Virus record (IMG/VR): IMGVR_UViG_2913177423_000001
Coordinates: 1-64,000 of that record
Reading direction: 5' to 3' (one strand)
DNA length: 64,000 nucleotides
From: a virus
Lineage: Duplodnaviria > Heunggongvirae > Uroviricota > Caudoviricetes
Of this stretch, positions 4,461 through 55,083 are shown one piece after another. Below the pieces are notes generated by a model. The model was given only the letters and a program-made list of their open reading frames with translations. It did no database searches and was not told the origin of the DNA. The position numbers and the translations under genes were made by a program. Every line of letters begins with the position of its first letter. Position 1 is the first letter of the stretch.

Positions 4461-5846
4461 TTGAACAAGTCAGTTACTTCTGCGCTTTCCGAGGCCGCAG
4501 ACATTAACAGCGTCATTGCTCTGGTTTCTTCATTAGAGAGGAAGGAAACACGCCTGGGGCGAAGTAGCTACGTAGTCACCAGCAAAGGCGCAGAGGTAAA
4601 GACAGCTTTTAAGGTTGTTGATGCCAGTAGCCTAATCATTTCGAATAACCTTGACGGTACGATTAACACTGCATTCCCGGAAGAACTCCAGCCACGTGAT
4701 CGTACACGTCTATCTAGCAAACTTCAGGTTAACCGTATTGCCTCCAATTTACGCCCAGCACAATTAACGGATTCAGGAATGAGTAGCCACGGAGCGCCAA
4801 TAGTTGGGCCTGACAACGTTGTTGAATCTGGTAATGGAAGGAGTATGGGGATCTGGCGCGCCTATGAGCAAGGACAGGCAGATGAATATCGCCAGTACCT
4901 GATCGACCATGCGAAAGAGTTTGGTCTGAATCCTGACGAAATTTCGCAAATGTCTATGCCCGTACTGGTGCGTGAAAGACTCACTGATGTAGATCGTGCG
5001 CAGTTCGCTCGCGATTCCAACATAAGTGATCTGCAAGAGATGGCGGCGAGTGAGAAAGCGTATGCTGATGCGCAATTCCTCACTGAGAGCGTCATGGCGC
5101 TATTTAATCCTTCAGAAGATGGAAATCTACTGGCGCGGTCCAATGATGCTTTTATTCGTGCGTTTTTGCGCGAAATAGGCGATACCGCGACGGCGGGTTT
5201 GCTTACTGCCGATGGGCGCCCTACGAAACAGCTGATCGACCGCATCCAGAATGCGATTTTTGCCAAAGCCTACAAAGATGAGCGACTGGTCCGGTTGGTG
5301 GCGGAAGAGCCAGATCCGGAAATGCGTAACATCCTGACCGCACTCAATACGGCAGCCAGCGATTTTGCGCAAATGCAGTCGCTGTCTGGCGACGTTCACC
5401 ATGACGCCGTAACTGGTTTAGTGGACGGTATAGAGCAGGTTAACGGTCTGGATACACAGGCAATTGCGGCACTCCAGGAAGCAATCAATCTTGTTCGTGA
5501 AGCCAAAGACAACGGTCAGGCCGTTGAAGAAGTGATCGCCCAAAGGGGGTTATTCGGCGACAGCACGCCAGAAGCAGAGGCGTTGGCGCTATTCATCGTA
5601 GCAAATAATCGTAGCGCGAAGCGTATGGGGGCAGCATTCAAAAAAATGGCGCAAAAAATCAACGACGAGCTGATTCATAAACAACAGGCGCTTGGCGATA
5701 TGTTCGGTGGTGAAGAAGTCGATTTGCGCAGTATTTTGTCTGTTGTTTCTGATGAAATTGAGGCTGAGTTTGGTGAAGGGAAAGGTCTGAACTTTGCTAT
5801 GTTCGAAAATTCTACAGCCCTAAATAATTGCAGTACGGAAAACTAA
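4461..5846 (+). CDS. hypothetical protein (461 aa), possible virion-associated protein
   Basis: long ORF; TTG start at 4461 preceded by GGGGGAG; no recognisable catalytic motif. Confidence 0.55.
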   Translation: MNKSVTSALSEAADINSVIALVSSLERKETRLGRSSYVVTSKGAEVKTAFKVVDASSLIISNNLDGTINTAFPEELQPRDRTRLSSKLQVNRIASNLRPAQLTDSGMSSHGAPIVGPDNVVESGNGRSMGIWRAYEQGQADEYRQYLIDHAKEFGLNPDEISQMSMPVLVRERLTDVDRAQFARDSNISDLQEMAASEKAYADAQFLTESVMALFNPSEDGNLLARSNDAFIRAFLREIGDTATAGLLTADGRPTKQLIDRIQNAIFAKAYKDERLVRLVAEEPDPEMRNILTALNTAASDFAQMQSLSGDVHHDAVTGLVDGIEQVNGLDTQAIAALQEAINLVREAKDNGQAVEEVIAQRGLFGDSTPEAEALALFIVANNRSAKRMGAAFKKMAQKINDELIHKQQALGDMFGGEEVDLRSILSVVSDEIEAEFGEGKGLNFAMFENSTALNNCSTEN

Positions 5847-5910
5847 ACCAACCGCTGAAATCACATACTGATTATGCTGCCGCGAAACTGGAAACAATTC
5901 GCGGTGATTC

Positions 5911-7593
5911 ATGGCAACGAAAGACAAAAACAAAGGTTTTCTGTCGGCATTGAAGAAAGCCTTCAACGGTGGTGATGTTACGCCCGCCGATCCGGTCGTT
6001 TTTACGAGCGGGCATAGTGTCGTTGCTCGTTCCGGCCTGTCCGCTTTACGTCCAGGCATCCTGGGGGGCAACAGCGATGGCATGACGAGTGCAGCAGATT
6101 CAATTTCTTTATCCGCTGAACTGCCCGGCGAGCGCCTGCAAAAGTACAACATCCTGGAAACGATGGCTAAAAGCCCGACTATCTCGACGGCTTTAAACAT
6201 TCACATTGCACATGCGCTTGCGCCTTCAAAAAAAACCGGGCTGGCATTCACGCTTTCGCCAAAAGATGGTTCCGATGCCGAGGCGGTAAGTAGATGTGAA
6301 GAGTTAACCGCAGATTTAGGGGCGATGATTAATGACGGTCTGCCTTCATGGGCCATGATTATGGCGATCTTTGGGGTGTCTTATGTCCGACCTTATGCTG
6401 AACAGGGCAGAGGGATAACTGGCATTGAATCCAGTTATTACACTCTTCCACACTTCGTCCAGGAATTTTATCGCGGTAGCCAGCTGGTCGGTTTCAGTGG
6501 TGATTACATTCTGGATACGCATAGTTTGCGCAGGGTAATAACCGAACCGTGGAATCTTGTTTCCATGAAAAACCCGTATTGGACGCCGCAGCATAAGGTT
6601 ATTCCGGTTAGCTACGGTACAAAAGGGTATTCACTGTTAAGTGATCAGGCTGATAAGCCGTTAATGGAGACGCAGAATTACGGAACTTCATTCCTGGAAT
6701 ACAGTTATGAACCCTACCTGAATTTATGTGCTGCGCTCGCCGCGCTGAAATCAACTCGAAATAATGCAGCCAAAATTGACCGTCTGATTGCTCTTACGAC
6801 GAACACACTGGACCCAGTTAATGCGGCTAACTATACGCGTGGCGTCAGCCAGGCATTGAAGCGTCATAGTGACCTGGTGGCACAAAGATCGATTAATGCC
6901 AACGCTATTCCTACGGTGCTTAACCATCTGATACCAGTTATGGGCGATGGGAAGAACGGCATCACTATTGATACGCAGTCTATACCCGCAGATATCAGCG
7001 GAATTGAAGACGTTATGTTTCATCTTCGTCAGTTAGCGGCCAGTTTAGGCATTGACGCCACGATGCTCGGTTGGGCAGATCAAATGAGTGGCGGGCTTGG
7101 AGAGGGAGGATGGCAACAAACTGCTATCCAAGCTGCATTACGTGCGAACTGGATCAGACAGGCCGCCCAGCGAACTATTTATCGGCTTCATGACATTCAC
7201 CTCGCCTACAAATACGGGAAGGTTTACACCGAAACAAACCGCCCGTATGACGTGCAATTCAACTCAATGAACACGGCTATCCAGGAGGAAGAAAACCGAG
7301 AACTGGATGCGCGCGCCAACTTTGTAGCTGTCATCTCGCAAATTATGGACCAGGTCCAGAACAACCCGAAACTGGCTGGTAGCGACGCGTTTATGCGCTA
7401 TCTGTTCACCGAACAGCTGCACATCGACGATGACACTCTCAATACCATGATCAAAGAGTTTAAGGCGAATGAATCAGAGCAAAACAACGAGCATGGCATG
7501 TACGAATCCGCGCCGTTGTCGTCAGGCGACAATCCAGAAAACTGGACGCTAGAGCAGTTAATCAACTTTGCAAAATTTGTGATGAGCAATTAA
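5911..7593 (+). CDS. hypothetical 560-aa protein, portal-protein candidate by size and context only
   Basis: ATG at 5911; long ORF in same rightward operon; no diagnostic motif seen. Confidence 0.4.
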   Translation: MATKDKNKGFLSALKKAFNGGDVTPADPVVFTSGHSVVARSGLSALRPGILGGNSDGMTSAADSISLSAELPGERLQKYNILETMAKSPTISTALNIHIAHALAPSKKTGLAFTLSPKDGSDAEAVSRCEELTADLGAMINDGLPSWAMIMAIFGVSYVRPYAEQGRGITGIESSYYTLPHFVQEFYRGSQLVGFSGDYILDTHSLRRVITEPWNLVSMKNPYWTPQHKVIPVSYGTKGYSLLSDQADKPLMETQNYGTSFLEYSYEPYLNLCAALAALKSTRNNAAKIDRLIALTTNTLDPVNAANYTRGVSQALKRHSDLVAQRSINANAIPTVLNHLIPVMGDGKNGITIDTQSIPADISGIEDVMFHLRQLAASLGIDATMLGWADQMSGGLGEGGWQQTAIQAALRANWIRQAAQRTIYRLHDIHLAYKYGKVYTETNRPYDVQFNSMNTAIQEEENRELDARANFVAVISQIMDQVQNNPKLAGSDAFMRYLFTEQLHIDDDTLNTMIKEFKANESEQNNEHGMYESAPLSSGDNPENWTLEQLINFAKFVMSN

Positions 7594-9841: not shown

Positions 9842-10183
9842 GCTGTTGCTAAATCGCAATGTATGATCTGCATCATCGACTGAAATCATCCATTGCTGAA
9901 ATTTTTAGTTGATCTTCCTAATGTTCAGGCTTATATTCACGTCGTCGTAGCAAATTCTGCGACCAGGTTTGACAGCCTGAATGTTAGTGCGGACAACCGC
10001 AGATTTCCGATATTGCGGTATTTTTGTGTCCGTAAACCGCGTTACGCCCGAATTATGGTGGGGCGTGATGGGGAGGCTTCGGCCTGCTGGTTTCACTAAC
10101 GCCAGTCTGTCAACCCTGTCACGTCCTGCCACCTGTTTGACAGCGGGTAGCAGGTTGTTAAACCTGTTAGTGAGGCCGTAACT

Positions 10184-23811: not shown

Positions 23812-23888
23812 GGTGGTGTAGCTCAGTAGGATAGAGCAGCAGCCTTCTAAGCTGTCGGTCGGTGGTTCGAATCCACTCACCATCGCCA
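23812..23888 (+). tRNA. tRNA-Arg (anticodon UCU)
   Basis: cloverleaf readable by eye: acceptor GGTGGTG/CACCATC, D-arm GCTC-AGTAGGATA-GAGC, anticodon loop CTTCTAA, T-loop TTCGAAT, encoded CCA. Confidence 0.8.
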
Positions 23889-23892
23889 AATT

Positions 23893-23968
23893 GCCGATTT
23901 AGCTCAGTTGGTAGAGCAGTCGCTTTGTAAGCGAATGGTCAGCGGTTCGATCCCGTTAATCGGCACCA
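23893..23968 (+). tRNA. tRNA-Thr (anticodon UGU)
   Basis: acceptor GCCGATT/AATCGGC, D-arm GCTC-AGTTGGTA-GAGC, anticodon loop TTTGTAA, T-loop TTCGATC, encoded CCA. Confidence 0.8.
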
Positions 23969-25440: not shown

Positions 25441-25516
25441 GGCCCCTTAGCTCAGTGGTTAGAGCTGGCGACTCATAATCGCACGGCCATCGGTTCAAAT
25501 CCGGTAGGGGCCACCA
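25441..25516 (+). tRNA. tRNA with CAU anticodon, probably tRNA-Ile2 (lysidine) rather than Met
   Basis: acceptor GGCCCCT/AGGGGCC, D-arm GCTC-AGTGGTTA-GAGC, anticodon loop CTCATAA, T-loop TTCAAAT, CCA; 5-prime half resembles enterobacterial ileX as recalled. Confidence 0.75.
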
Positions 25517-46171: not shown

Positions 46172-46952
46172 TTTTATGTTGAGTTTGAAATTTACTGATT
46201 GTACATTTTGATTAGATTGGTTCACCGCTCGACGCAACGAGACAAATCCTCAAGGATTTCGTATGATTGCCAATGTCATAGTTATGGCAGCGCAATACAG
46301 GTGGCTAAAAGCCCCCGTTGACTCACGGTGTTCCAACCTGTATTGCGCCGCCACCAGACCGTGGAACAGTCTGTGACGGCTTCGAAAGCAAGGAGTCACT
46401 ATGAACAATTACAAACTTTTCCCATCACTCACCGTCTACTCACGCAATAACCTGCGTTCTTTGCTCCCATCAAAACTGGAGGGAGTATCAAAATGACCGT
46501 TCGCTACCTGAATTATCAAATCCAGAACATCACTGGCGGTTGCTATGACTGGTTTGTCACTCTTGGTAAAGAAGTGATCACCGGGAAGCTGGATGAAGTG
46601 AAAGCTAAAGCAATGGCCTACGCCTGCAAGCAAGCCCAAAAGAAGAAAAGAAAAGCATAAGAAAACACACTGTTGCGCCCTGGCATTATCGTGGGGTATA
46701 TTTCTACGGCACCTTAGAAAAACGGGTGCCGGGATTGGTCTCCCGGTAATGTCAAAGGCGACACATAGACGCCGCAAGCGTCTTTTTTGTTGTCGGCGCA
46801 CTCGCACACCTATCAATGGTGGGCTGTGTGGTGGCTTCCTCGGAAGCGCCGGTTCCCTTTGACGCCGGTAAGACCAACTCCACACAGTCCACCGCCAGTA
46901 AGATTGGTCTCTTCGGCGGTGGTATCGTTCACTGTCAAAGGAGGCTGCCAAT

Positions 46953-48153: not shown

Positions 48154-48465
48154 ATGAAGAAAATAGATTTCACTTACTCTGCCGCCACAGTCCAGCGACG
48201 TTTCAGTCTCATAAGGGAAGTGGAACTATCAAAAACCGGGTATCAGGTTCTGTTGGATGAAGAGTTATCACTGATGGTAATAGCAGAAAAATTGGCTATG
48301 CCGAATGATCGGCACAAAGTCATTGCAAGCCTTGACCTGGTAACAAACAGATACTGGGAAGCAGAGGGACCACATGGAGATGGTGTAATACGCGAAATGA
48401 TTGAACAAGCGACGCCCCTACGCTATCGGATACGAAATGAAGTCACCATAATTGAAAGGTCTTAA
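48154..48465 (+). CDS. hypothetical protein (103 aa)
   Basis: ATG at 48154. Confidence 0.45.
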   Translation: MKKIDFTYSAATVQRRFSLIREVELSKTGYQVLLDEELSLMVIAEKLAMPNDRHKVIASLDLVTNRYWEAEGPHGDGVIREMIEQATPLRYRIRNEVTIIERS

Positions 48466-48596
48466 CGATAGTCTGCCACGAATAGTAACTTCCACTGCCT
48501 TAAGTTATTTAATTGCATTACAAAGTGTAAATTAGTAATATTAGAGTCTCACACAGCACTATAACTATATGTTTTTTATGTAAAAGGACGATAATT

Positions 48597-48947
48597 TTGG
48601 CTACTAAAGTTAAACTAGAAAATCCGCAAACTGGCGAGTCAATAACAGGTTTTTATGGCTTTTCCTGGACTACATTCTTGTTTGGCGCTTTTCCAGCTTT
48701 GTTCAGGAAAGACTTTATAACTTTTGTTGGGGTATTCGTTGTGATGCTGATACTGGCATGCCTCACATTCGGAATTGGCCCTTGGATAGCCTCGTTTATC
48801 TGGGCGTTCATGTACAATAAATATTTCACCGTAAATAAGATAAAACAAGGATTCGTATTTGCTAGTTCTCACACAGAAAATGAGTTAGCCGCCAGCAAAC
48901 TTGGATTAGCCTTAAATCAAAACAACTGCAAAACTATTACCGCGTGA
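48597..48947 (+). CDS. small membrane protein (116 aa)
   Basis: TTG start, two or three hydrophobic helices, AT-rich. Confidence 0.4.
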   Translation: MATKVKLENPQTGESITGFYGFSWTTFLFGAFPALFRKDFITFVGVFVVMLILACLTFGIGPWIASFIWAFMYNKYFTVNKIKQGFVFASSHTENELAASKLGLALNQNNCKTITA

Positions 48948-48989: not shown

Positions 48990-49865
48990 CTAGTCCTGCT
49001 GACAATTAAGGAACATAAACGCACGTTTGTCCGTTAAATCAGTAACATAATATTCACGAATACCATTCGGTTTTATGCGGCGAGCATACACAAACTTATG
49101 AACTGGCTGGTCGCTGCCATAACTAACCTCAGTGCGAAATTCATCGACCGTGCTACCATCCTTTTCTGTCTCTTTGCGTATCAGTTTATTGTTCAGATCT
49201 GGCTGAGTCTCATCCATTCCGCTAAATGCATCTTGCCCGGTACTATTACCCCGGTTGCCACGTGGTAAATCCCACGAAAAATAAGTCCCATAGTCTGTAA
49301 TTACCTGATCCCACGCCCCGGTTTCATCCATATAATGACTACGCTTCCCTTGGTATGTTACGTCAACCTTACAGGAAAACGTTGGCGCGCTATTACTTGC
49401 AGCTGAGGCCGTTGAAGATTGTGTAACACTGCCATTGTTGGCATTTCCATAGTTCCAGCCATCATGCAACGCTTTAACCCACAGATTAGTCAGGGATAGC
49501 GTAACATCATTCCCCAACGCCTGGCTGATTCGAAGCCTCTGTATCCGGCGTAACCCATACTCATAGGCTTCATCGTCATTAATCACTCGCCCACGTTGAG
49601 CGGCTACCACCCCAGATTGCCACGCACGATTAATTTCACGAATAAGATACACTTGTGGATCAACGCCGTATCTGTTGTATTCATAGTAAAGGCTCATTGC
49701 GCCGTGTTGGCTCTGGTATTCATTAGCCCATGATATAACCGCGTTTCTTCCATAATCCGCGAGCGCAGAATGACTTGACAGAAGAAGAGCAACGCCAACA
49801 GTCTTCAGTAATTTGAATCGGCACAACTTTTTAATAATACGATTGGGAAATGTTTTTTTGCTCAC
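48990..49865 (-). CDS. secreted protein with signal peptide (291 aa)
   Basis: N-terminal signal sequence ending ALA-DY; Asn/Gly/Ser-rich mature region. Confidence 0.5.
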   Translation of the reverse strand: MSKKTFPNRIIKKLCRFKLLKTVGVALLLSSHSALADYGRNAVISWANEYQSQHGAMSLYYEYNRYGVDPQVYLIREINRAWQSGVVAAQRGRVINDDEAYEYGLRRIQRLRISQALGNDVTLSLTNLWVKALHDGWNYGNANNGSVTQSSTASAASNSAPTFSCKVDVTYQGKRSHYMDETGAWDQVITDYGTYFSWDLPRGNRGNSTGQDAFSGMDETQPDLNNKLIRKETEKDGSTVDEFRTEVSYGSDQPVHKFVYARRIKPNGIREYYVTDLTDKRAFMFLNCQQD

Positions 49866-50095
49866 TTTTCAACCTTTTGCCACAAATCCAGACCAACTAC
49901 CTAATAATAATAACTAACCACTCTGTTTTTTTGATAAGCACCAAATCGTTTACAAAAAAAATAGCAAATGACTATTGACACTATTCTGGAAATCACAAAC
50001 TGCACATAATCCATCGCGCTAACGGCTCCCGTTGAAGGTTCTTTTGACGATTAACTTTCAGCCGAAGCGCGGTAGGGAGTCATAACGCCAAAGCA

Positions 50096-50119
50096 GGCCG
50101 CCATGTGCGGCCTTTTTTT
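50096..50119 (+). terminator. intrinsic terminator-like hairpin upstream of gene 50147
   Basis: GGCCGC-catgt-GCGGCC followed by TTTTTTT. Confidence 0.5.
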
Positions 50120-51129: not shown

Positions 51130-51459
51130 ATGGGCTATAGCAGACTCGACGATCGATACATTGAAGACGATATTCTGCGCGCACTGTTCCACCAGGAGAT
51201 GATTAAACGGGTATCGGAATATCACCCGGATAACTTCCAGTACACGATAAAAATTGATGAAGTCTATCGTTCAGACCTGGCTGCCTACCGGGCGTATGGG
51301 AACGCAGATTTACGCTGGGTATTCAGAGTGCTGGTGGGGCATGAATCAGAAATGGAAGAAATGCCCGCCGGGACCACGTTAACTCTCCCTGATGTGGCAT
51401 GGCTGAGAAACAAGATCCGTGATTATGCTGGCGCTGAACCGGAGATAAAAAATGCCTGA
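51130..51459 (+). CDS. hypothetical protein (109 aa)
   Basis: ATG at 51130; overlaps start of next gene. Confidence 0.45.
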   Translation: MGYSRLDDRYIEDDILRALFHQEMIKRVSEYHPDNFQYTIKIDEVYRSDLAAYRAYGNADLRWVFRVLVGHESEMEEMPAGTTLTLPDVAWLRNKIRDYAGAEPEIKNA

Positions 51460-52648
51460 TTTCCTGAAAAACCAGGACGGGCGCTATATCACTGACGGCC
51501 TGTCCTCTAAGGACTTCACGCGTATATTCGACCTTATCAGGAAAGAACAAACCCGTAAGCGCCGACAAGCTCACCGAACGCTTACACCTGGCAGACTGAG
51601 GAACAAATCCGCCGAAGATATTCTCAAGTTAGGGAAGAAGAAAGGCGGCACGTTCTTTACGCGAGACGATCTGAAAGGTTTCGAAAAGCTACGGAGTAAA
51701 ACGCGCGAAAAATATGACAGCAAGACGGCTGGCATTACATACGCCCAGCTGGTGGCGTCCAGCCAGGCTATCGATATTAAGCGTGCAAATAACGCCGTAG
51801 ACGACGGTTCCGGTATCAAAAGAGCTACGCCCGTATCTCTTCGCCACAACGTGATTAATATCCGCGTAGAAGCATCAGATATATCCGTCCACCAGCATCA
51901 TATCGTCCGGATACGCTTTGAAGAATGGGATCAGATGGTCGATGACATCGCAGAAGACGATAAATCAGCCCTGAAAGTCACTAAATCACTGTGTGCTGGG
52001 CGGGTATCTTTCGATTGTGACTGTGGTCGTCATCAATACTGGTATCGTTACATCGCCACTGCGGGTAACTTTGCCCTGGCACCGCCAAAAGAATACGCCT
52101 ATCCAAAAGTTCGCAACCCGAAGCTGCAAGGCGTCGCCTGTAAACACGTGATCCACTCAATGACGCGGTTACAGTCCGCCAGTTGGCAAATGAGTATTGC
52201 TCGTGCGCTACAAAAGGCTGCAACGCAAATTGCATTTGGTGACGATCGCCGCCGTACAACCAAACACTTCTCAAAAGAAGACGAGAAGGAGTTTAATCGC
52301 AATCGTAGCAGTAAAACGAACGTTGAAGCCGCCAAACGCGAATGGAGGCTCTATCAGAAACGCCAGGCCGCTTTAAGCACAAAACTGGCAAAGGACAACG
52401 GCAAGATTGACATGCTACGTGACCAGCTGACCAGGGCCAGAAAGTTGTCAGACGCACAGAAAAAACGAGCGGCAGCAAAAGAAGCGGCCTTGCAACGCGA
52501 GAAACAGAAAAACAAGGAGCTTCAGCAACGCCTTGCCGATCAGTTCGCACTGAAGAAGCAGGCGTTCATTGATGCGCTTGTCATGGCAGGAACGTCACCT
52601 GAGCAAGCTGAAAAAATGTTTATGGAGTATGTGAAGAAAGGTTCTTAA
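51452..52648 (+). CDS. SWIM zinc-finger protein with basic coiled-coil C-terminus
   Basis: CxC-Xn-CxH pattern FDCDCGRHQ ... VACKHVIH; Lys/Arg/Gln-rich C-terminal third. Confidence 0.5.
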   Translation: MPDFLKNQDGRYITDGLSSKDFTRIFDLIRKEQTRKRRQAHRTLTPGRLRNKSAEDILKLGKKKGGTFFTRDDLKGFEKLRSKTREKYDSKTAGITYAQLVASSQAIDIKRANNAVDDGSGIKRATPVSLRHNVINIRVEASDISVHQHHIVRIRFEEWDQMVDDIAEDDKSALKVTKSLCAGRVSFDCDCGRHQYWYRYIATAGNFALAPPKEYAYPKVRNPKLQGVACKHVIHSMTRLQSASWQMSIARALQKAATQIAFGDDRRRTTKHFSKEDEKEFNRNRSSKTNVEAAKREWRLYQKRQAALSTKLAKDNGKIDMLRDQLTRARKLSDAQKKRAAAKEAALQREKQKNKELQQRLADQFALKKQAFIDALVMAGTSPEQAEKMFMEYVKKGS

Positions 52649-52656
52649 TTTACAAC

Positions 52657-52680
52657 AAAGGCGGTTATCCCGCCTTTTAT
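52657..52680. terminator. bidirectional intrinsic terminator
   Basis: AAAGGCGG-ttatc-CCGCCTTT between convergent genes. Confidence 0.7.
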
Positions 52681-52681
52681 A

Positions 52682-53419
52682 TTACTTGTCCTTTGATGTC
52701 GATTGAGACTCATATATTGCCTCTACGTCATCTATTAGTTTATTAATACCCCACAATCCAGTGTCTTTATAAAAATCGCTTTCTTCAATTGCTTTTAATA
52801 AATCGGCAAAATCTTCTTGGGTGGAAATTCTTTTCTTTTTTGCTTTATATACATCGACAATTACTTTTATGCCGTGATACAGAGCCACTCTGGCACTCTC
52901 AATCTCTCTCTTCTTCTCTTCAATTGCAGACAATAATTTATATTGATCTTCTGTTTGCTTTTCTAGACTTAAAAGCTTGTTCTCTTTTTGCTTCAGGTTG
53001 ATCTGCAATTCTTTTATTCTTGCTCTCTCTTCTAAATCAAACTCATAGTCAATGTATCTGATTCTTGCATAGTTCCTCCCTGTTGCTTTTGATATACACA
53101 TTGTTATATAAGGCATTACCACTGACGCAGTGGTTCCATATATAAATGGCATAACAAAATGAGCCACAAACGGAGATACAACGATGGGACCAATATAAGG
53201 AAAGTGATATTTCTCGCCAACCCATACTATAGACAATGTTGTATATATATCGTACTTTGATTTAAATAAAATAATAATATCCTGCCAGTTAACGACAAAA
53301 AAAGAAACCACAACATATGCAAACAACTTATTAAATAACTTGTCTCTTATGGCTTCTTCGATTGTGTTCTTGACTGTGACATTTTCATCTTTATTTTCTA
53401 GTGATGAATCTTTGCTCAT
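52682..53419 (-). CDS. membrane protein with cytoplasmic coiled coil; abortive-infection or exclusion candidate
   Basis: markedly AT-rich ORF; two hydrophobic segments then heptad-rich C-terminus; single-gene unit with its own terminator. Confidence 0.4.
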   Translation of the reverse strand: MSKDSSLENKDENVTVKNTIEEAIRDKLFNKLFAYVVVSFFVVNWQDIIILFKSKYDIYTTLSIVWVGEKYHFPYIGPIVVSPFVAHFVMPFIYGTTASVVMPYITMCISKATGRNYARIRYIDYEFDLEERARIKELQINLKQKENKLLSLEKQTEDQYKLLSAIEEKKREIESARVALYHGIKVIVDVYKAKKKRISTQEDFADLLKAIEESDFYKDTGLWGINKLIDDVEAIYESQSTSKDK

Positions 53420-53480
53420 ATAAACAATCAAACCTTCTTATCTTTATTTTTGGTAAAGGCGGTCATCCAGACCGCCAAAC

Positions 53481-53840
53481 TCAAACACCAACCAGGCTTT
53501 CAAGAGGAATACCAAACTGGGAATGTAAACGACGAATCATAGGTAACGTCAAATTTCGTGTCCCATTAAGCACTTCGTAAACACGGTTTGACTTACCAAT
53601 TGCCGGTTCCAGATCCTTCACTGTCAGCCCTTGCTGTTCCATACGAAACTTAATGGCTTCAATAGGTGATGGTGGCTCTATTGGGTAATGCTTTTTCTCG
53701 TACTCTTCAATGAGCAGGCACATTACTTCAAAGAAATCGCCTTCCGGTGTGTTCATTTCCGGTTCGTTATCGAACATCGGTTCGACCGCACGCAGTGCGG
53801 CCTCATAATCTTGTTCTGTACGGATAGGTTTAATGTTCAT
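53481..53840 (-). CDS. higA: HigA-family antitoxin (HTH)
   Basis: 119 aa; C-terminal HTH LTVKDLEPAIGKSNRVYEVLNG; located 3 bp downstream of the toxin gene. Confidence 0.75.
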   Translation of the reverse strand: MNIKPIRTEQDYEAALRAVEPMFDNEPEMNTPEGDFFEVMCLLIEEYEKKHYPIEPPSPIEAIKFRMEQQGLTVKDLEPAIGKSNRVYEVLNGTRNLTLPMIRRLHSQFGIPLESLVGV

Positions 53841-53843
53841 GAT

Positions 53844-54146
53844 TTACTCCAGTTCTATTGTATCCGCTTCAATGGCATCGTATTCCTTATGTGTTCCAAT
53901 AAACTTAACGAACATCCATCCTCGCTGATAAGCAATTGCGACAATTAACCTGTAATCATTTCCCTTAATATTGAACACCACGCGCCTGTTTTTAAGGATG
54001 CTGGCTGTCCGGTACTGTTCTTTGATCTCAGCCGGATTTTTCCAGTCAGCCTTTGTTGCTTCATCAACCCATGCCTTTAATGGCTGTTCTGCATCGGGAT
54101 TCTTCGCCCAGAAATCCCTTAGTGTTTTTACCGAAATTATTTTCAT
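53844..54146 (-). CDS. higB: HigB-family (RelE/ParE superfamily) toxin
   Basis: ATG at 54146 after AAGGA; about 100 aa, toxin-first gene order typical of higBA. Confidence 0.7.
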   Translation of the reverse strand: MKIISVKTLRDFWAKNPDAEQPLKAWVDEATKADWKNPAEIKEQYRTASILKNRRVVFNIKGNDYRLIVAIAYQRGWMFVKFIGTHKEYDAIEADTIELE

Positions 54147-54176
54147 CACAGATTCCTTCTCTCTGAAAGCAGAGTA

Positions 54177-54222
54177 GTCCCAATATGGGACAATGTAAAG
54201 CACTTTAGTCCCATGCTGGGAT
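54177..54222. promoter_or_regulatory. tandem palindromes, candidate HigA operators
   Basis: GTCCCAATATGGGAC and GTCCCATGCTGGGAT directly upstream of higB. Confidence 0.45.
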
Positions 54223-54291
54223 ATGAATTGAAATCACAATCTCCAGACAATGCACCTTCGATACCTGATACATCGACCTTTGAGGATGCTT

Positions 54292-55083
54292 ATGGGCCGT
54301 TTTGACGAATGGTTTGCTGACGATGCAAACCTGGTAAGTAAGGAGTCAGAACATGACAGCACGCAGAGAGAAACGCCAGCGCCGATTGAAGAGGATGCAG
54401 GAGGCGCGCCGGAACATGGCAATACCGGATCGGATTCATTCAGCATTCTGGAAGAGCAATCCACCGCCGAAGCTGATCGCCATGATAATTTCCCTGGTAG
54501 CGGCGGTAGTTTTACTCCGGACACTGGAGAACCTGATATAGCCATTCTGCCATCTTCCCTGGCAGGCAGAGAACCAACTCCACAGCTAAAAACACGCTAT
54601 AACGGGCATAAAGCCTTTAACGACCAGATCCGTGCTGACTGGATGTTAATTATTGAATCCAGCCCAGACGCGTTCCAGGCGCTCTTATACCGACCTGATG
54701 TCGGCACATATGGCGTGGTCAGCGACGAAACTGGAGAAGAGTCATTCACTGAACTGGATAACAACCAGCGCGAACTGACTTACCAGGAACCTGAAATCGT
54801 TTATGTGCTGGATAACCCTGATGGGCGTGACTCTTTCCATGCTCTTGACTCAGACGGTGAGCAGGACGGTCTGACTGATGACGTCCTTATTCTGCGAATC
54901 GCCGCAAATAACGTACCCGTCGGCTCAATTCTTGAGTGGAATGAAGAGATGGCAAATGGTGTAGCTCGCCGCTGGTGGTATGTACACCGTATTTTCAGTT
55001 ACGGCACACAGCATGTCGGCTCGCTTTACTACTGCATACCCGCAAGAAACTTTGATACGACTCAGAATGGGGTGATCGAGTAA
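54292..55083 (+). CDS. hypothetical acidic protein
   Basis: ATG at 54292 after GAGGA; Asp/Glu-rich; first gene of a rightward structural-like block. Confidence 0.45.
   Translation: MGRFDEWFADDANLVSKESEHDSTQRETPAPIEEDAGGAPEHGNTGSDSFSILEEQSTAEADRHDNFPGSGGSFTPDTGEPDIAILPSSLAGREPTPQLKTRYNGHKAFNDQIRADWMLIIESSPDAFQALLYRPDVGTYGVVSDETGEESFTELDNNQRELTYQEPEIVYVLDNPDGRDSFHALDSDGEQDGLTDDVLILRIAANNVPVGSILEWNEEMANGVARRWWYVHRIFSYGTQHVGSLYYCIPARNFDTTQNGVIE

What the first reader, a model, noticed from the sequence alone, without database searches (positions are those of the whole stretch)
52682..53419. AT-rich single-gene moron encoding a membrane plus coiled-coil protein
This leftward ORF is visibly far more AT-rich than its neighbours, has its own bidirectional terminator (52657-52680), and encodes two hydrophobic segments followed by a long heptad-rich cytoplasmic tail. 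Composition, isolation and architecture are typical of horizontally acquired abortive-infection or superinfection-exclusion genes. It sits next to higBA, giving a small defence-like islet.
Basis: partly seen in the sequence, partly recalled or inferred. Interest (0 to 1): 0.6.

Follow-up and report, generated by a model that had tools for sequence, protein, structure and literature searches.

The report
Variable membrane gene behind higBA
This is a real, AT-rich accessory gene of a D6/P1-like phage-plasmid; it encodes a two-pass membrane protein with a long cytoplasmic helix from an uncharacterised, fast-changing family, sits at the tail end of the higBA toxin-antitoxin operon, and is a plausible but untested phage-exclusion gene.

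Summary
ORF 52682-53419(-) encodes 245 aa. At 33.3% GC it is the lowest-GC stretch of the 64-kb window (mean 47.7%). It ends at a hairpin terminator shared with the convergent tail gene and lies directly behind higB-higA.

The window is a D6/P1-like phage-plasmid of E. coli/Salmonella. Some near-identical relatives lack the gene, so it is moron-like. It is not an autonomous unit, though. The segment absent from those relatives includes only 35-37 nt upstream of the ATG, and no promoter stands out above chance. In a Klebsiella IncFIB plasmid and a divergent phage-plasmid, higB-higA-X moves as one 1.7-kb block.

X belongs to a family with no Pfam or PADLOC model (phrog_8191, function unknown; 73 clusters). 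The two-segment membrane domain is conserved. The cytoplasmic helix and C-terminal domain are swapped between alleles (37-97% identity) behind a 95-100% identical HigA. Family members are always AT-rich cargo of mobile elements. They often follow TA or Abi genes, but also occur alone in P2-like and lambdoid prophages.

X stays intact where higA is frameshifted, so it is not an obligate TA partner. The best reading is a lysogen-expressed membrane exclusion or abortive-infection protein. This function is inferred, not shown.

The parts
52682..53419 (-). CDS of 'X', 245 aa including the stop codon. N-in/C-in two-segment membrane protein with a long cytoplasmic helix and a small helical C-terminal domain.
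   Evidence: ORF list and sequence. phrog_8191 at E 4e-116 over the full length. dN/dS 0.24. AF2 model with mean pLDDT 77.5.
53261..53329 (-). Hydrophobic segment 1 (aa 31-53), carrying the family-invariant S39, N44 and W45.
   Evidence: Hydropathy. Invariant columns in alignments A3/A6.
53090..53173 (-). Hydrophobic segment 2 (aa 83-110), carrying the conserved P91 and P103. It continues without a break into the cytoplasmic helix.
   Evidence: Net charge of +3 just after the segment places the C-terminus in the cytoplasm by the positive-inside rule (inference).
52685..53089 (-). Variable cytoplasmic part: long helix (aa 111-194) plus C-terminal helical domain (aa 195-245). This is the part exchanged between alleles.
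   Evidence: Nucleotide similarity to L004 and D6 stops about 270 nt into the gene and resumes in the tail gene. Per-segment identities. Alignment A2.
52657..52677 (.). Bidirectional intrinsic terminator hairpin (T-tail to about 52687), shared by X and the convergent tail gene.
53458..53476 (-). Intercistronic hairpin between higA and X (GGCGGTC-ATCCA-GACCGCC). It corresponds to the single terminator hairpin of X-less relatives. On the transcribed strand it is followed by UUUACC, not a U-tract.
   Evidence: Alignment A1. Fold. Not called as a terminator.
52657..52670 (.). Left copy of the 14-nt direct repeat AAAGGCGGT(T/C)ATCC that flanks the ~800-bp X segment.
   Evidence: Alignment with X-less EP91B and sequence.
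53455..53468 (.). Right copy of the same direct repeat.
53481..53840 (-). higA antitoxin (119 aa, Xre-type HTH), immediately upstream of X.
   Evidence: HTH_3. PD-Lambda-2_B N-terminal match. RefSeq annotation of relatives. 95-100% identical in all D6-like loci examined.
53844..54146 (-). higB toxin (100 aa).
   Evidence: PF09907 at E 3e-34. Annotation.
54171..54221 (-). Putative higBA(-X) promoter: TTTACA-17-TACTCT with two TCCCA-N3-TGGGA palindromes (54221-54209 and 54191-54177), taken as likely HigA operators.
   Evidence: Read directly from the sequence. Inference only: the consensus scan did not call it.
51452..52648 (+). Convergent late tail gene (P1 gene 25 homologue), the left boundary of the islet.
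   Evidence: phrog_1722 tail protein at 4e-196. D6 annotation.
54250..55083 (+). Tail gene (P1 gene 7 homologue), the right boundary of the islet.
   Evidence: phrog_1906. D6 annotation.

Best explanation
X is a horizontally exchanged cargo gene of a D6/P1-like phage-plasmid.

**Expression (inferred).** It has no promoter of its own. It is most likely transcribed in the plasmid-prophage state as the third cistron of the HigA-autoregulated higB-higA operon. Transcription would read through a weak intercistronic hairpin and stop at the terminator shared with the tail gene.

**Protein (predicted).** X inserts into the inner membrane through two conserved hydrophobic segments, N-in and C-in. An ~85-residue helix and a small helical domain project into the cytoplasm, and X probably oligomerises along that helix.

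**Function (inferred).** The conserved membrane domain is the constant working part. The rapidly exchanged cytoplasmic part sets specificity. The most likely job is to exclude or abort infection by other phages at the membrane. X acts on its own, not as an obligate partner of HigBA; the TA operon mainly supplies constitutive low-level lysogenic expression and stabilises the locus.

**Confidence by part.** That X is a mobile, hypervariable membrane cargo gene attached to the higBA operon: about 0.85. That its function is phage exclusion or abortive infection: about 0.4.
For: **Presence/absence.** EP91B has the tail gene followed directly by higA. The junction is uninterrupted in 16 of 64 E. coli genomes and interrupted in 48.

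**No autonomous promoter.** Only 35-37 nt of the X-specific segment lie 5' of the ATG. Promoter-like sites are at chance level, 5 found against 5.1 expected. The hairpin lacks a U-tract on the coding strand.

**Three-gene block.** A Klebsiella IncFIB plasmid (L009) and a divergent phage-plasmid (L012) share only a 1731-nt segment at 95% identity. It runs from ~190 nt upstream of higB2 to the X stop codon.

**Deep HigBA-X linkage.**
- HigB(PF09907)-HigA-X recurs with an X only ~24% identical to the window's (L051).
- A HigA remnant lies upstream of X in L010.

**Hypervariability.** Across the window, the 15 D6-like loci and other D6-like relatives, HigA is 95-100% identical while X is 37-97%. 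The identity pattern is mosaic and the breakpoint lies inside the gene.

**Purifying selection.** dN/dS is 0.24.

**Independence from the TA pair.**
- In a widespread lineage higA is frameshifted while X is intact.
- X follows RelBE, a PD-T7-4-like gene and two AbiTii genes.
- X stands alone in P2-like prophages, and lies in a cI-repressor operon in Yersinia.

**Composition.** X is 4-19 GC points below its surroundings in all 17 contexts measured.

**Structure.**
Against: - No experiment or homology links the family to defence. PADLOC, Pfam and NCBIfam give nothing beyond coiled-coil noise.
- No similarity to lambda SieB or RexB, nor to any PDB or BFVD structure.
- Co-transcription with higBA is inferred from sequence only.
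- The Shine-Dalgarno-like AAGAAGG lies 13 nt from the ATG, which is long.
- The recurrent HigB(PF09907)-HigA-X arrangement over deep divergence could instead mean a real functional tie to HigBA.
- About half of the contexts have no TA or defence neighbour.
- Oligomerisation and topology are predictions. The heptad test was not significant.
Confidence: 0.45

Rival explanations
1. X is a true third component of a tripartite HigB-HigA-X system. In this reading the membrane protein senses an event at the membrane, such as phage DNA entry or envelope stress, and controls release of the HigB RNase.
For: - HigB(PF09907)-HigA-X is found in three deeply diverged versions: the window, L009/L012, and L051.
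- The three genes move as one block.
- Orphan HigA stays next to X when higB is replaced.
- A HigA remnant persists next to X in L010.
- Three-gene HigB-based defence systems exist, for example PD-lambda-2 (PMC9519451).
Against: - X stays intact, with an identical sequence, in many contigs where higA is frameshifted.
- higBA exists without X.
- X also follows RelBE (toxin-last order), a PD-T7-4-like gene and AbiTii genes, and occurs alone with long upstream gaps.
- X varies from 37 to 97% identity behind a constant HigA.
Confidence: 0.2
2. X is a selfish or neutral hitchhiker, or a membrane protein with a non-defence role in the carrier element. Possible roles include modulating lysis timing, cell division or envelope properties, plasmid entry exclusion, or anti-defence.
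For: - There is no homology to any defence protein.
- The architecture (membrane anchor plus cytoplasmic helix) is shared by many division and lysis regulators (own knowledge).
- Several contexts are plain mobile-element junk regions, such as integrase-X-resolvase.
Against: - Purifying selection.
- The gene lies opposite in orientation to, and outside, the late and lysis operons.
- It is dispensable in 16 of 64 relatives, so it is not needed for the phage or plasmid life cycle.
- Mosaic hypervariability is more typical of conflict genes.
Confidence: 0.25
3. X is a membrane toxin kept in check by the adjacent HigA, as a repressor or antitoxin. This would make it a second killing module for post-segregational stabilisation, comparable to relF/hokD behind relBE.
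For: - X is always directly downstream of HigA in D6-like elements, even when HigB is replaced.
- It is a small two-segment membrane protein.
- The E. coli relBEF operon is a precedent for a membrane toxin as a third cistron (own knowledge).
Against: - The higA frameshift lineage keeps X intact and is widespread.
- Solo family members have no adjacent regulator.
- At 245 aa with a large structured cytoplasmic part, X is unlike Hok-type peptides.
Confidence: 0.08
4. X is a structural or housekeeping membrane protein of the phage, or not a real gene at all.
For: It lies between tail/baseplate operons.
Against: - Opposite strand to the late operons.
- Absent from near-identical phage-plasmids.
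- Also found on non-phage plasmids and chromosomes.
- dN/dS of 0.24 and 73 homologous clusters.
Confidence: 0.02

Closest known systems
phrog_8191 / D6 orf73 (YP_009914750), the uncharacterised family to which X belongs
   Same: Full-length HMM match at E 4e-116. D6 orf73 occupies the same position behind the same HigA.
   Different: D6 orf73 is only 38% identical to X. The family has no assigned function, no Pfam model and no literature.
Prophage membrane exclusion / abortive-infection proteins (lambda RexB, lambda/P22 SieB, HK97 gp15, T4 Imm)
   Same: Small inner-membrane proteins. They are expressed from the prophage, dispensable, AT-rich and moron-like. One family member sits in a cI-repressor operon, as rexAB does.
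   Different: No sequence or profile similarity. X has a long cytoplasmic helix and a variable C-terminal domain that these proteins lack. No phenotype is known for X.
Three-gene TA-derived defence systems (PD-lambda-2: HigB-like + HigA-peptidase + P4-antitoxin-like; CmdTAC/TAC with a SecB chaperone)
   Same: The operon begins with a HigB/HigA pair. higB and higA here match PD-Lambda-2_A and the first 119 positions of _B. A third gene follows.
   Different: HigA here has no peptidase domain. X is a membrane protein unrelated to PD-lambda-2C or SecB. X is not tied to one TA family.
relBEF operon of E. coli K-12 (relB-relE-hokD)
   Same: A type II TA operon with a membrane-protein gene as the third cistron (own knowledge).
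   Different: HokD is a ~50-aa Hok-family peptide. X is 245 aa, unrelated, hypervariable and also found away from TA genes.
Two-TM effectors of CBASS/retron-type defence systems (2TM, SLATT)
   Same: Two N-terminal membrane segments followed by helical cytoplasmic regions. These effectors are proposed to permeabilise the membrane (own knowledge).
   Different: No consistent HMM match. One of 44 relatives hit a PADLOC '2TM effector' model at 4e-4 and the window protein did not. No cyclase or retron partner is present.

Membership tests
X family (phrog_8191 and its 73 representative clusters) | Full-length profile match. | tested here: met
   phrog_8191 at E 3.8e-116 over residues 1-245. The profile search finds 73 clusters at E<=1e-3 and 25 at <=1e-10.
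X family (phrog_8191 and its 73 representative clusters) | Conserved membrane-domain signature: S39, N44-W45, S54, P91, P103. | tested here: met
   Invariant or >=90% conserved columns in the 44- and 68-sequence alignments.
Moron (Hendrix/Juhala sense) | Present between two genes that are adjacent in closely related phages. | tested here: met
   EP91B has the tail gene followed directly by higA. 16 of 64 E. coli genomes have the uninterrupted junction.
Moron (Hendrix/Juhala sense) | Nucleotide composition different from the surrounding genome. | tested here: met
   33.3% against 47.7% GC, the lowest segment in the window. The same holds in 17 of 17 contexts.
Moron (Hendrix/Juhala sense) | Own promoter and terminator, forming an autonomous transcription unit. 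| tested here: not met
   A terminator is present but shared. No promoter stands out above chance, and only 35-37 nt of the X-specific DNA lie 5' of the ATG. Expression was not measured.
Tripartite type II TA / PD-lambda-2 | HigA fused to an ImmA/IrrE peptidase, plus a P4-antitoxin-like third protein. | tested here: not met
   HigA is 119 aa and matches only positions 1-119 of the 402-position PD-Lambda-2_B profile. X has no PADLOC hit. System description from PMC9519451.
Tripartite type II TA (generic) | The third gene strictly co-occurs with one cognate TA pair. | tested here: not met
   X is found with HigBA1, HigBA2, HigB3A3 plus orphan or frameshifted HigA1, and RelBE. It is also found with PD-T7-4-like and AbiTii genes, and alone.
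Tripartite type II TA (generic) | The third protein is required for toxin control or the defence phenotype. | not testable with these tools
   Needs genetics.
Known anti-phage defence systems (PADLOC-DB v2) | HMM match to a component model. | tested here: not met
   No hit at E<=1 for X. Relatives hit only SMC/coiled-coil models weakly.
SieB / RexB exclusion proteins | Sequence or profile similarity to lambda SieB or RexB. | tested here: not met
   hhalign probability below 1% for both. No PF14163 hit among 44 relatives.
Coiled-coil protein | Long helix with heptad periodicity. | tested here: inconclusive
   AF2 predicts helix 83-194 with pLDDT above 90 over 120-170. Relatives give weak coiled-coil Pfam hits. 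The single-register heptad test was not better than shuffles.
Abortive infection / superinfection exclusion (functional class) | Reduces plating or productive infection of a phage when expressed. | not testable with these tools
   Only context is available: TA, AbiTii and PD-T7-4 neighbours, prophage lysogenic operons, and hypervariability.

The most novel reading that the evidence does not exclude
X may define a new class of hypervariable, membrane-anchored phage sensor/effector proteins that use small autoregulated toxin operons, above all PF09907-type HigBA, as their expression and stabilisation platform. In the strongest version X is functionally wired to HigBA. An event at the inner membrane, such as phage DNA entry, would be sensed by X and converted into HigB activation, giving a membrane-coupled tripartite TA defence system.
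Probability: 0.15. Interest if true: 0.75.

Novelty: new variant of a known kind. Interest (0 to 1): 0.45.

Why it matters
Type II TA modules on plasmids and prophages are usually read as two-gene addiction or defence units. Here an unannotated third gene rides on them repeatedly, and it evolves far faster than the TA pair itself.

If X is an exclusion or abortive-infection protein, it would add a new membrane-effector family to the defence repertoire of phage-plasmids. These elements are widespread in clinical E. coli, Salmonella and Klebsiella. It would also give a natural allelic series, with a constant membrane domain and swapped cytoplasmic domains, for mapping what sets phage specificity.

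If X is wired to HigBA, it would be a new way of triggering a TA toxin.

If it is neither, the finding is still a useful annotation correction: the 'higBA' loci of D6-like elements and Klebsiella virulence-type plasmids are three-gene loci.

Tried and rejected
**Family libraries.** Pfam, NCBIfam and PADLOC on X and on 44 relatives gave only a sub-threshold DUF6947 hit (17 bits against a cutoff of 27) and coiled-coil noise such as ZapB, LmuB and JetC.

**Structure and sequence searches.**
- A PDB sequence profile search gave only coiled-coil matches.
- Foldseek against BFVD gave nothing at E<1.
- The afdb50 library was unavailable.
- hhalign against lambda SieB and RexB was negative.

**Scans that failed.**
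- The genome-contig scan with the close-family alignment found no relative.
- The 44-sequence alignment was too divergent for locus scanning.
- The word-indexed protein search with the wide alignment added only a Yersinia subgroup.

**Literature.** There was no hit for the accessions or the PHROG id. The D6 genome paper is not held. The D6-like Salmonella paper treats higBA only as an addiction system.

**Ideas tested and dropped.**
- P2 orf30 is not a relative.
- 'X is an antitoxin-dependent toxin or obligate TA partner' was downgraded because higA is frameshifted in a widespread lineage with intact X.
- The TacAT-X link in L010 is incidental. A terminator and a HigA remnant lie between TacT and X.
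- The heptad periodicity test was not significant.

**Left open.** The direction of the event (insertion or deletion between the 14-nt repeats) cannot be decided from the data.

Full report
**1. Observation**

Its GC content is 33.3%. The window mean is 47.7% (sd 3.2% for windows of the same length), and the global minimum of the 64-kb window falls inside the gene.

The hairpin at 52657-52677 folds well on both strands (-11.7 and -15.4 kcal/mol, z -3.1 and -4.5) and has U-tracts both ways. It lies 8 nt after the stop of the convergent tail gene, so it is a shared terminator and not a private one.

Two hydrophobic segments are present (aa ~31-53 and ~76-110). With a 68-sequence alignment, AlphaFold gives a model with mean pLDDT 77.5. 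In it the second segment continues as a single helix to residue 194 (pLDDT above 90 over 120-170), followed by a small helical domain. A simple heptad-register test was not better than shuffles, so I call it a long charged helix, coiled-coil-like.

The neighbours are a bona fide higB (PF09907, 3e-34) and a higA (HTH_3).

**2. What the window is**

The region matches ~90-kb E. coli plasmids annotated with phage tail and baseplate genes. It is 90% identical to phage D6, a P1-like phage-plasmid.

The islet higB-higA-X points leftward. It lies between two rightward late operons, the homologues of P1 genes 26-25 and 7-24-6-5. D6 orf73 is the positional and sequence homologue of X at 38% identity.

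**3. Presence/absence and the junction**

Plasmid pEP91B-2 has the tail gene followed directly by higA, with a single hairpin between them. Aligning it with the window shows an ~800-bp extra segment bounded by a 14-nt direct repeat, AAAGGCGGT(T/C)ATCC. The segment consists of 35-37 nt, the X ORF and a terminator hairpin.

Among E. coli complete genomes with this junction, 16 of 64 are uninterrupted and 48 are interrupted. Gain by insertion and loss by recombination between the repeats are both possible, and the direction cannot be decided.

**4. Expression**

- The 61-nt higA-X spacer holds the ancestral hairpin. On the coding strand it is followed by UUUACC, not a U-tract.
- Promoter-like matches in the 2-kb region are at the chance level, 5 found against 5.1 expected.
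- Upstream of higB the sequence reads TTTACA-17-TACTCT, overlapped by two TCCCA-N3-TGGGA palindromes. This is a typical autoregulated TA promoter, but that is an inference.

I therefore infer that X is the third cistron of the higBA operon. This was not measured.

**5. The family**

X matches phrog_8191 (function unknown) over its full length at 4e-116. It has no Pfam, NCBIfam or PADLOC family.

An exhaustive profile search of 1.8 billion representatives finds 73 clusters at E<=1e-3, mostly 210-270 aa. The conserved positions are S39, N44-W45, S54, P91 and P103, all in the membrane domain. The cytoplasmic part is barely alignable.

**6. Evolutionary pattern**

- Across the D6-like loci examined, HigA is 95-100% identical while X ranges over 97, 79, 70, 66, 49, 42, 38 and 37% identity.
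- Nucleotide similarity between the window and L004 or D6 runs through higA and about the first 270 nt of X. It then vanishes and resumes at 95% in the tail gene.
- Identity is mosaic. The 85%-nucleotide allele is 41% identical in residues 1-22 but 94% in the C-terminal domain. The P0006 allele shows the reverse pattern.
- Against the 85% allele, dN/dS is 0.24, with dS of 0.5-0.8 in the divergent part. The flanking genes have dS of about 0.2 and dN/dS of 0.02-0.04.

X is therefore a functional gene that is shuffled by recombination much faster than its neighbours.

**7. Link to TA modules**

*Evidence for a link*
- A Klebsiella IncFIB plasmid and a divergent phage-plasmid share nothing but a 1731-nt block at 95% identity. 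The block runs from ~190 nt upstream of a second-type higB to the stop codon of X.
- A third, deeply diverged version, HigB(PF09907)-HigA-X with X ~24% identical, occurs in another phage-plasmid lineage.
- That version's decayed form, a HigA N-domain remnant, lies upstream of X in a Citrobacter phage-plasmid.
- X also directly follows RelB-RelE on an E. coli IncFIB plasmid.
- It follows a PD-T7-4-like DUF4145 gene after an 11-nt gap.
- It follows two AbiTii genes.

*Evidence against an obligate partnership*
- In D6 and many relatives higB is replaced by a different TA pair while an orphan HigA stays next to X.
- In the widespread P0006 lineage that higA is frameshifted while X is intact and identical across contigs.
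- higBA exists without X.
- Family members also stand alone in several settings:
  - in P2-like prophages, between genes S and V on the opposite strand or after ogr;
  - in a cI-repressor operon of a Yersinia prophage;
  - between an integrase and a resolvase;
  - as solitary island genes.

In all 17 contexts measured, X is 4-19 GC points below its surroundings.

**8. Interpretation**

*Shown*
- X is a real, selected, AT-rich, hypervariable membrane-protein gene.
- It is mobile cargo of temperate phages and plasmids.
- In this window it is physically appended to the higBA operon.

*Inferred*
- Co-transcription with higBA.
- N-in/C-in topology.
- Oligomerisation along the helix.
- A phage-exclusion or abortive-infection function in which the conserved membrane domain is the working part and the swapped cytoplasmic part sets specificity.

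The functional inference rests on four observations: dispensability, placement in lysogen-expressed operons, neighbourhood with TA, Abi and PD-T7-4 genes, and the constant/variable architecture typical of conflict genes. I give it about 0.4.

The main rival is a true HigB-HigA-X tripartite system. The depth of the HigBA association supports it, and the frameshifted-higA lineage and the TA-free contexts weaken it. I give it about 0.2.

**9. Comparison with the known**

- **Autonomous moron:** not met, because X has no promoter of its own.
- **PD-lambda-2:** not a member. HigA lacks the peptidase domain, and X is unrelated to PD-lambda-2C.
- **SieB/RexB:** not a member.
- **Any PADLOC system:** not a member.

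X works most like the small prophage membrane exclusion proteins. Architecturally it recalls relBEF (a TA operon with a membrane protein as third cistron) and two-TM defence effectors, but these are analogies only.

**10. Verdict**

X is a good, cheap candidate for plaque assays. Interest is moderate at 0.45.

Noticed in passing
window 10051-10136 and 46812-46899 (+), with 9931-9983 and 46709-46788: There are two separate C4 antisense RNA genes (Rfam RF01695, 69 and 74 bits). The first is preceded by a c4-a1b1 target element and the second by an isrK-like sRNA. The element therefore seems to carry two immI-type immunity modules, whereas P1 has one (own knowledge).
   Followed up: no
window 23812-23888, 23893-23968, 25441-25516 (+): Three phage-borne tRNA genes are present: Arg-tct, Thr-tgt and Met-cat.
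   Followed up: no
window 53481-54146 (-): higB and higA score strongly against the PADLOC models PD-Lambda-2_A (1e-41) and PD-Lambda-2_B (7e-43). The _B match covers only the first 119 of 402 profile positions. The peptidase domain and the third PD-lambda-2 gene are absent. An automatic annotator could therefore over-call a partial PD-lambda-2 system here.
   Followed up: partly
window 54171-54221 (-): Two TCCCA-N3-TGGGA palindromes overlap a TTTACA-17-TACTCT promoter-like site upstream of higB. They are probably HigA operators.
   Followed up: no
L036 2058-2439; L048-L050 2058-2243: In the widespread lineage carrying the P0006 allele of X, the higA gene next to X is split by a frameshift into 54-61 aa and 86 aa ORFs. 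A different TA pair (PF05015 HigB-like plus HTH_3) sits upstream.
   Followed up: yes
L048 3323-3811 (+); L036 3332-3811: An extra 159-162 aa gene with a YjaZ (PF27200) match is inserted after X, on the same strand, before the tail gene. This makes a four- to five-gene cargo string at this hot spot. It has no PADLOC hit.
   Followed up: partly
L010 ~5840-5990: A remnant of a HigA2-like N-terminal domain lies between a TacT (GNAT) terminator and the X homologue of a Citrobacter phage-plasmid. It is 41% identical over 58 aa and has no HTH. It may be a decayed antitoxin or a small ORF starting at GTG.
   Followed up: partly
L019, L031, L052, L053 (downstream of X): In the subfamily with the SW-GFNWQN motif, X is repeatedly followed by a serine recombinase/resolvase gene. 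It is preceded by an integrase, AbiTii genes or a PD-T7-4-like gene. This suggests a small mobile cassette.
   Followed up: no
window 48990-49865 (-): A 291-aa ORF with a signal-peptide-like N-terminus (phrog_13054, function unknown) lies at the position of the D6 simB-like superimmunity gene. It is flanked by further low-GC stretches at 48450-48750 and 49800-50100. This is another variable accessory locus.
   Followed up: no
L009 / Klebsiella plasmids: Most of the 55 Klebsiella plasmid hits cover only residues 1-139 of X and have a second matching place in the record. The gene therefore seems to be disrupted in many large IncFIB-type Klebsiella plasmids.
   Followed up: no
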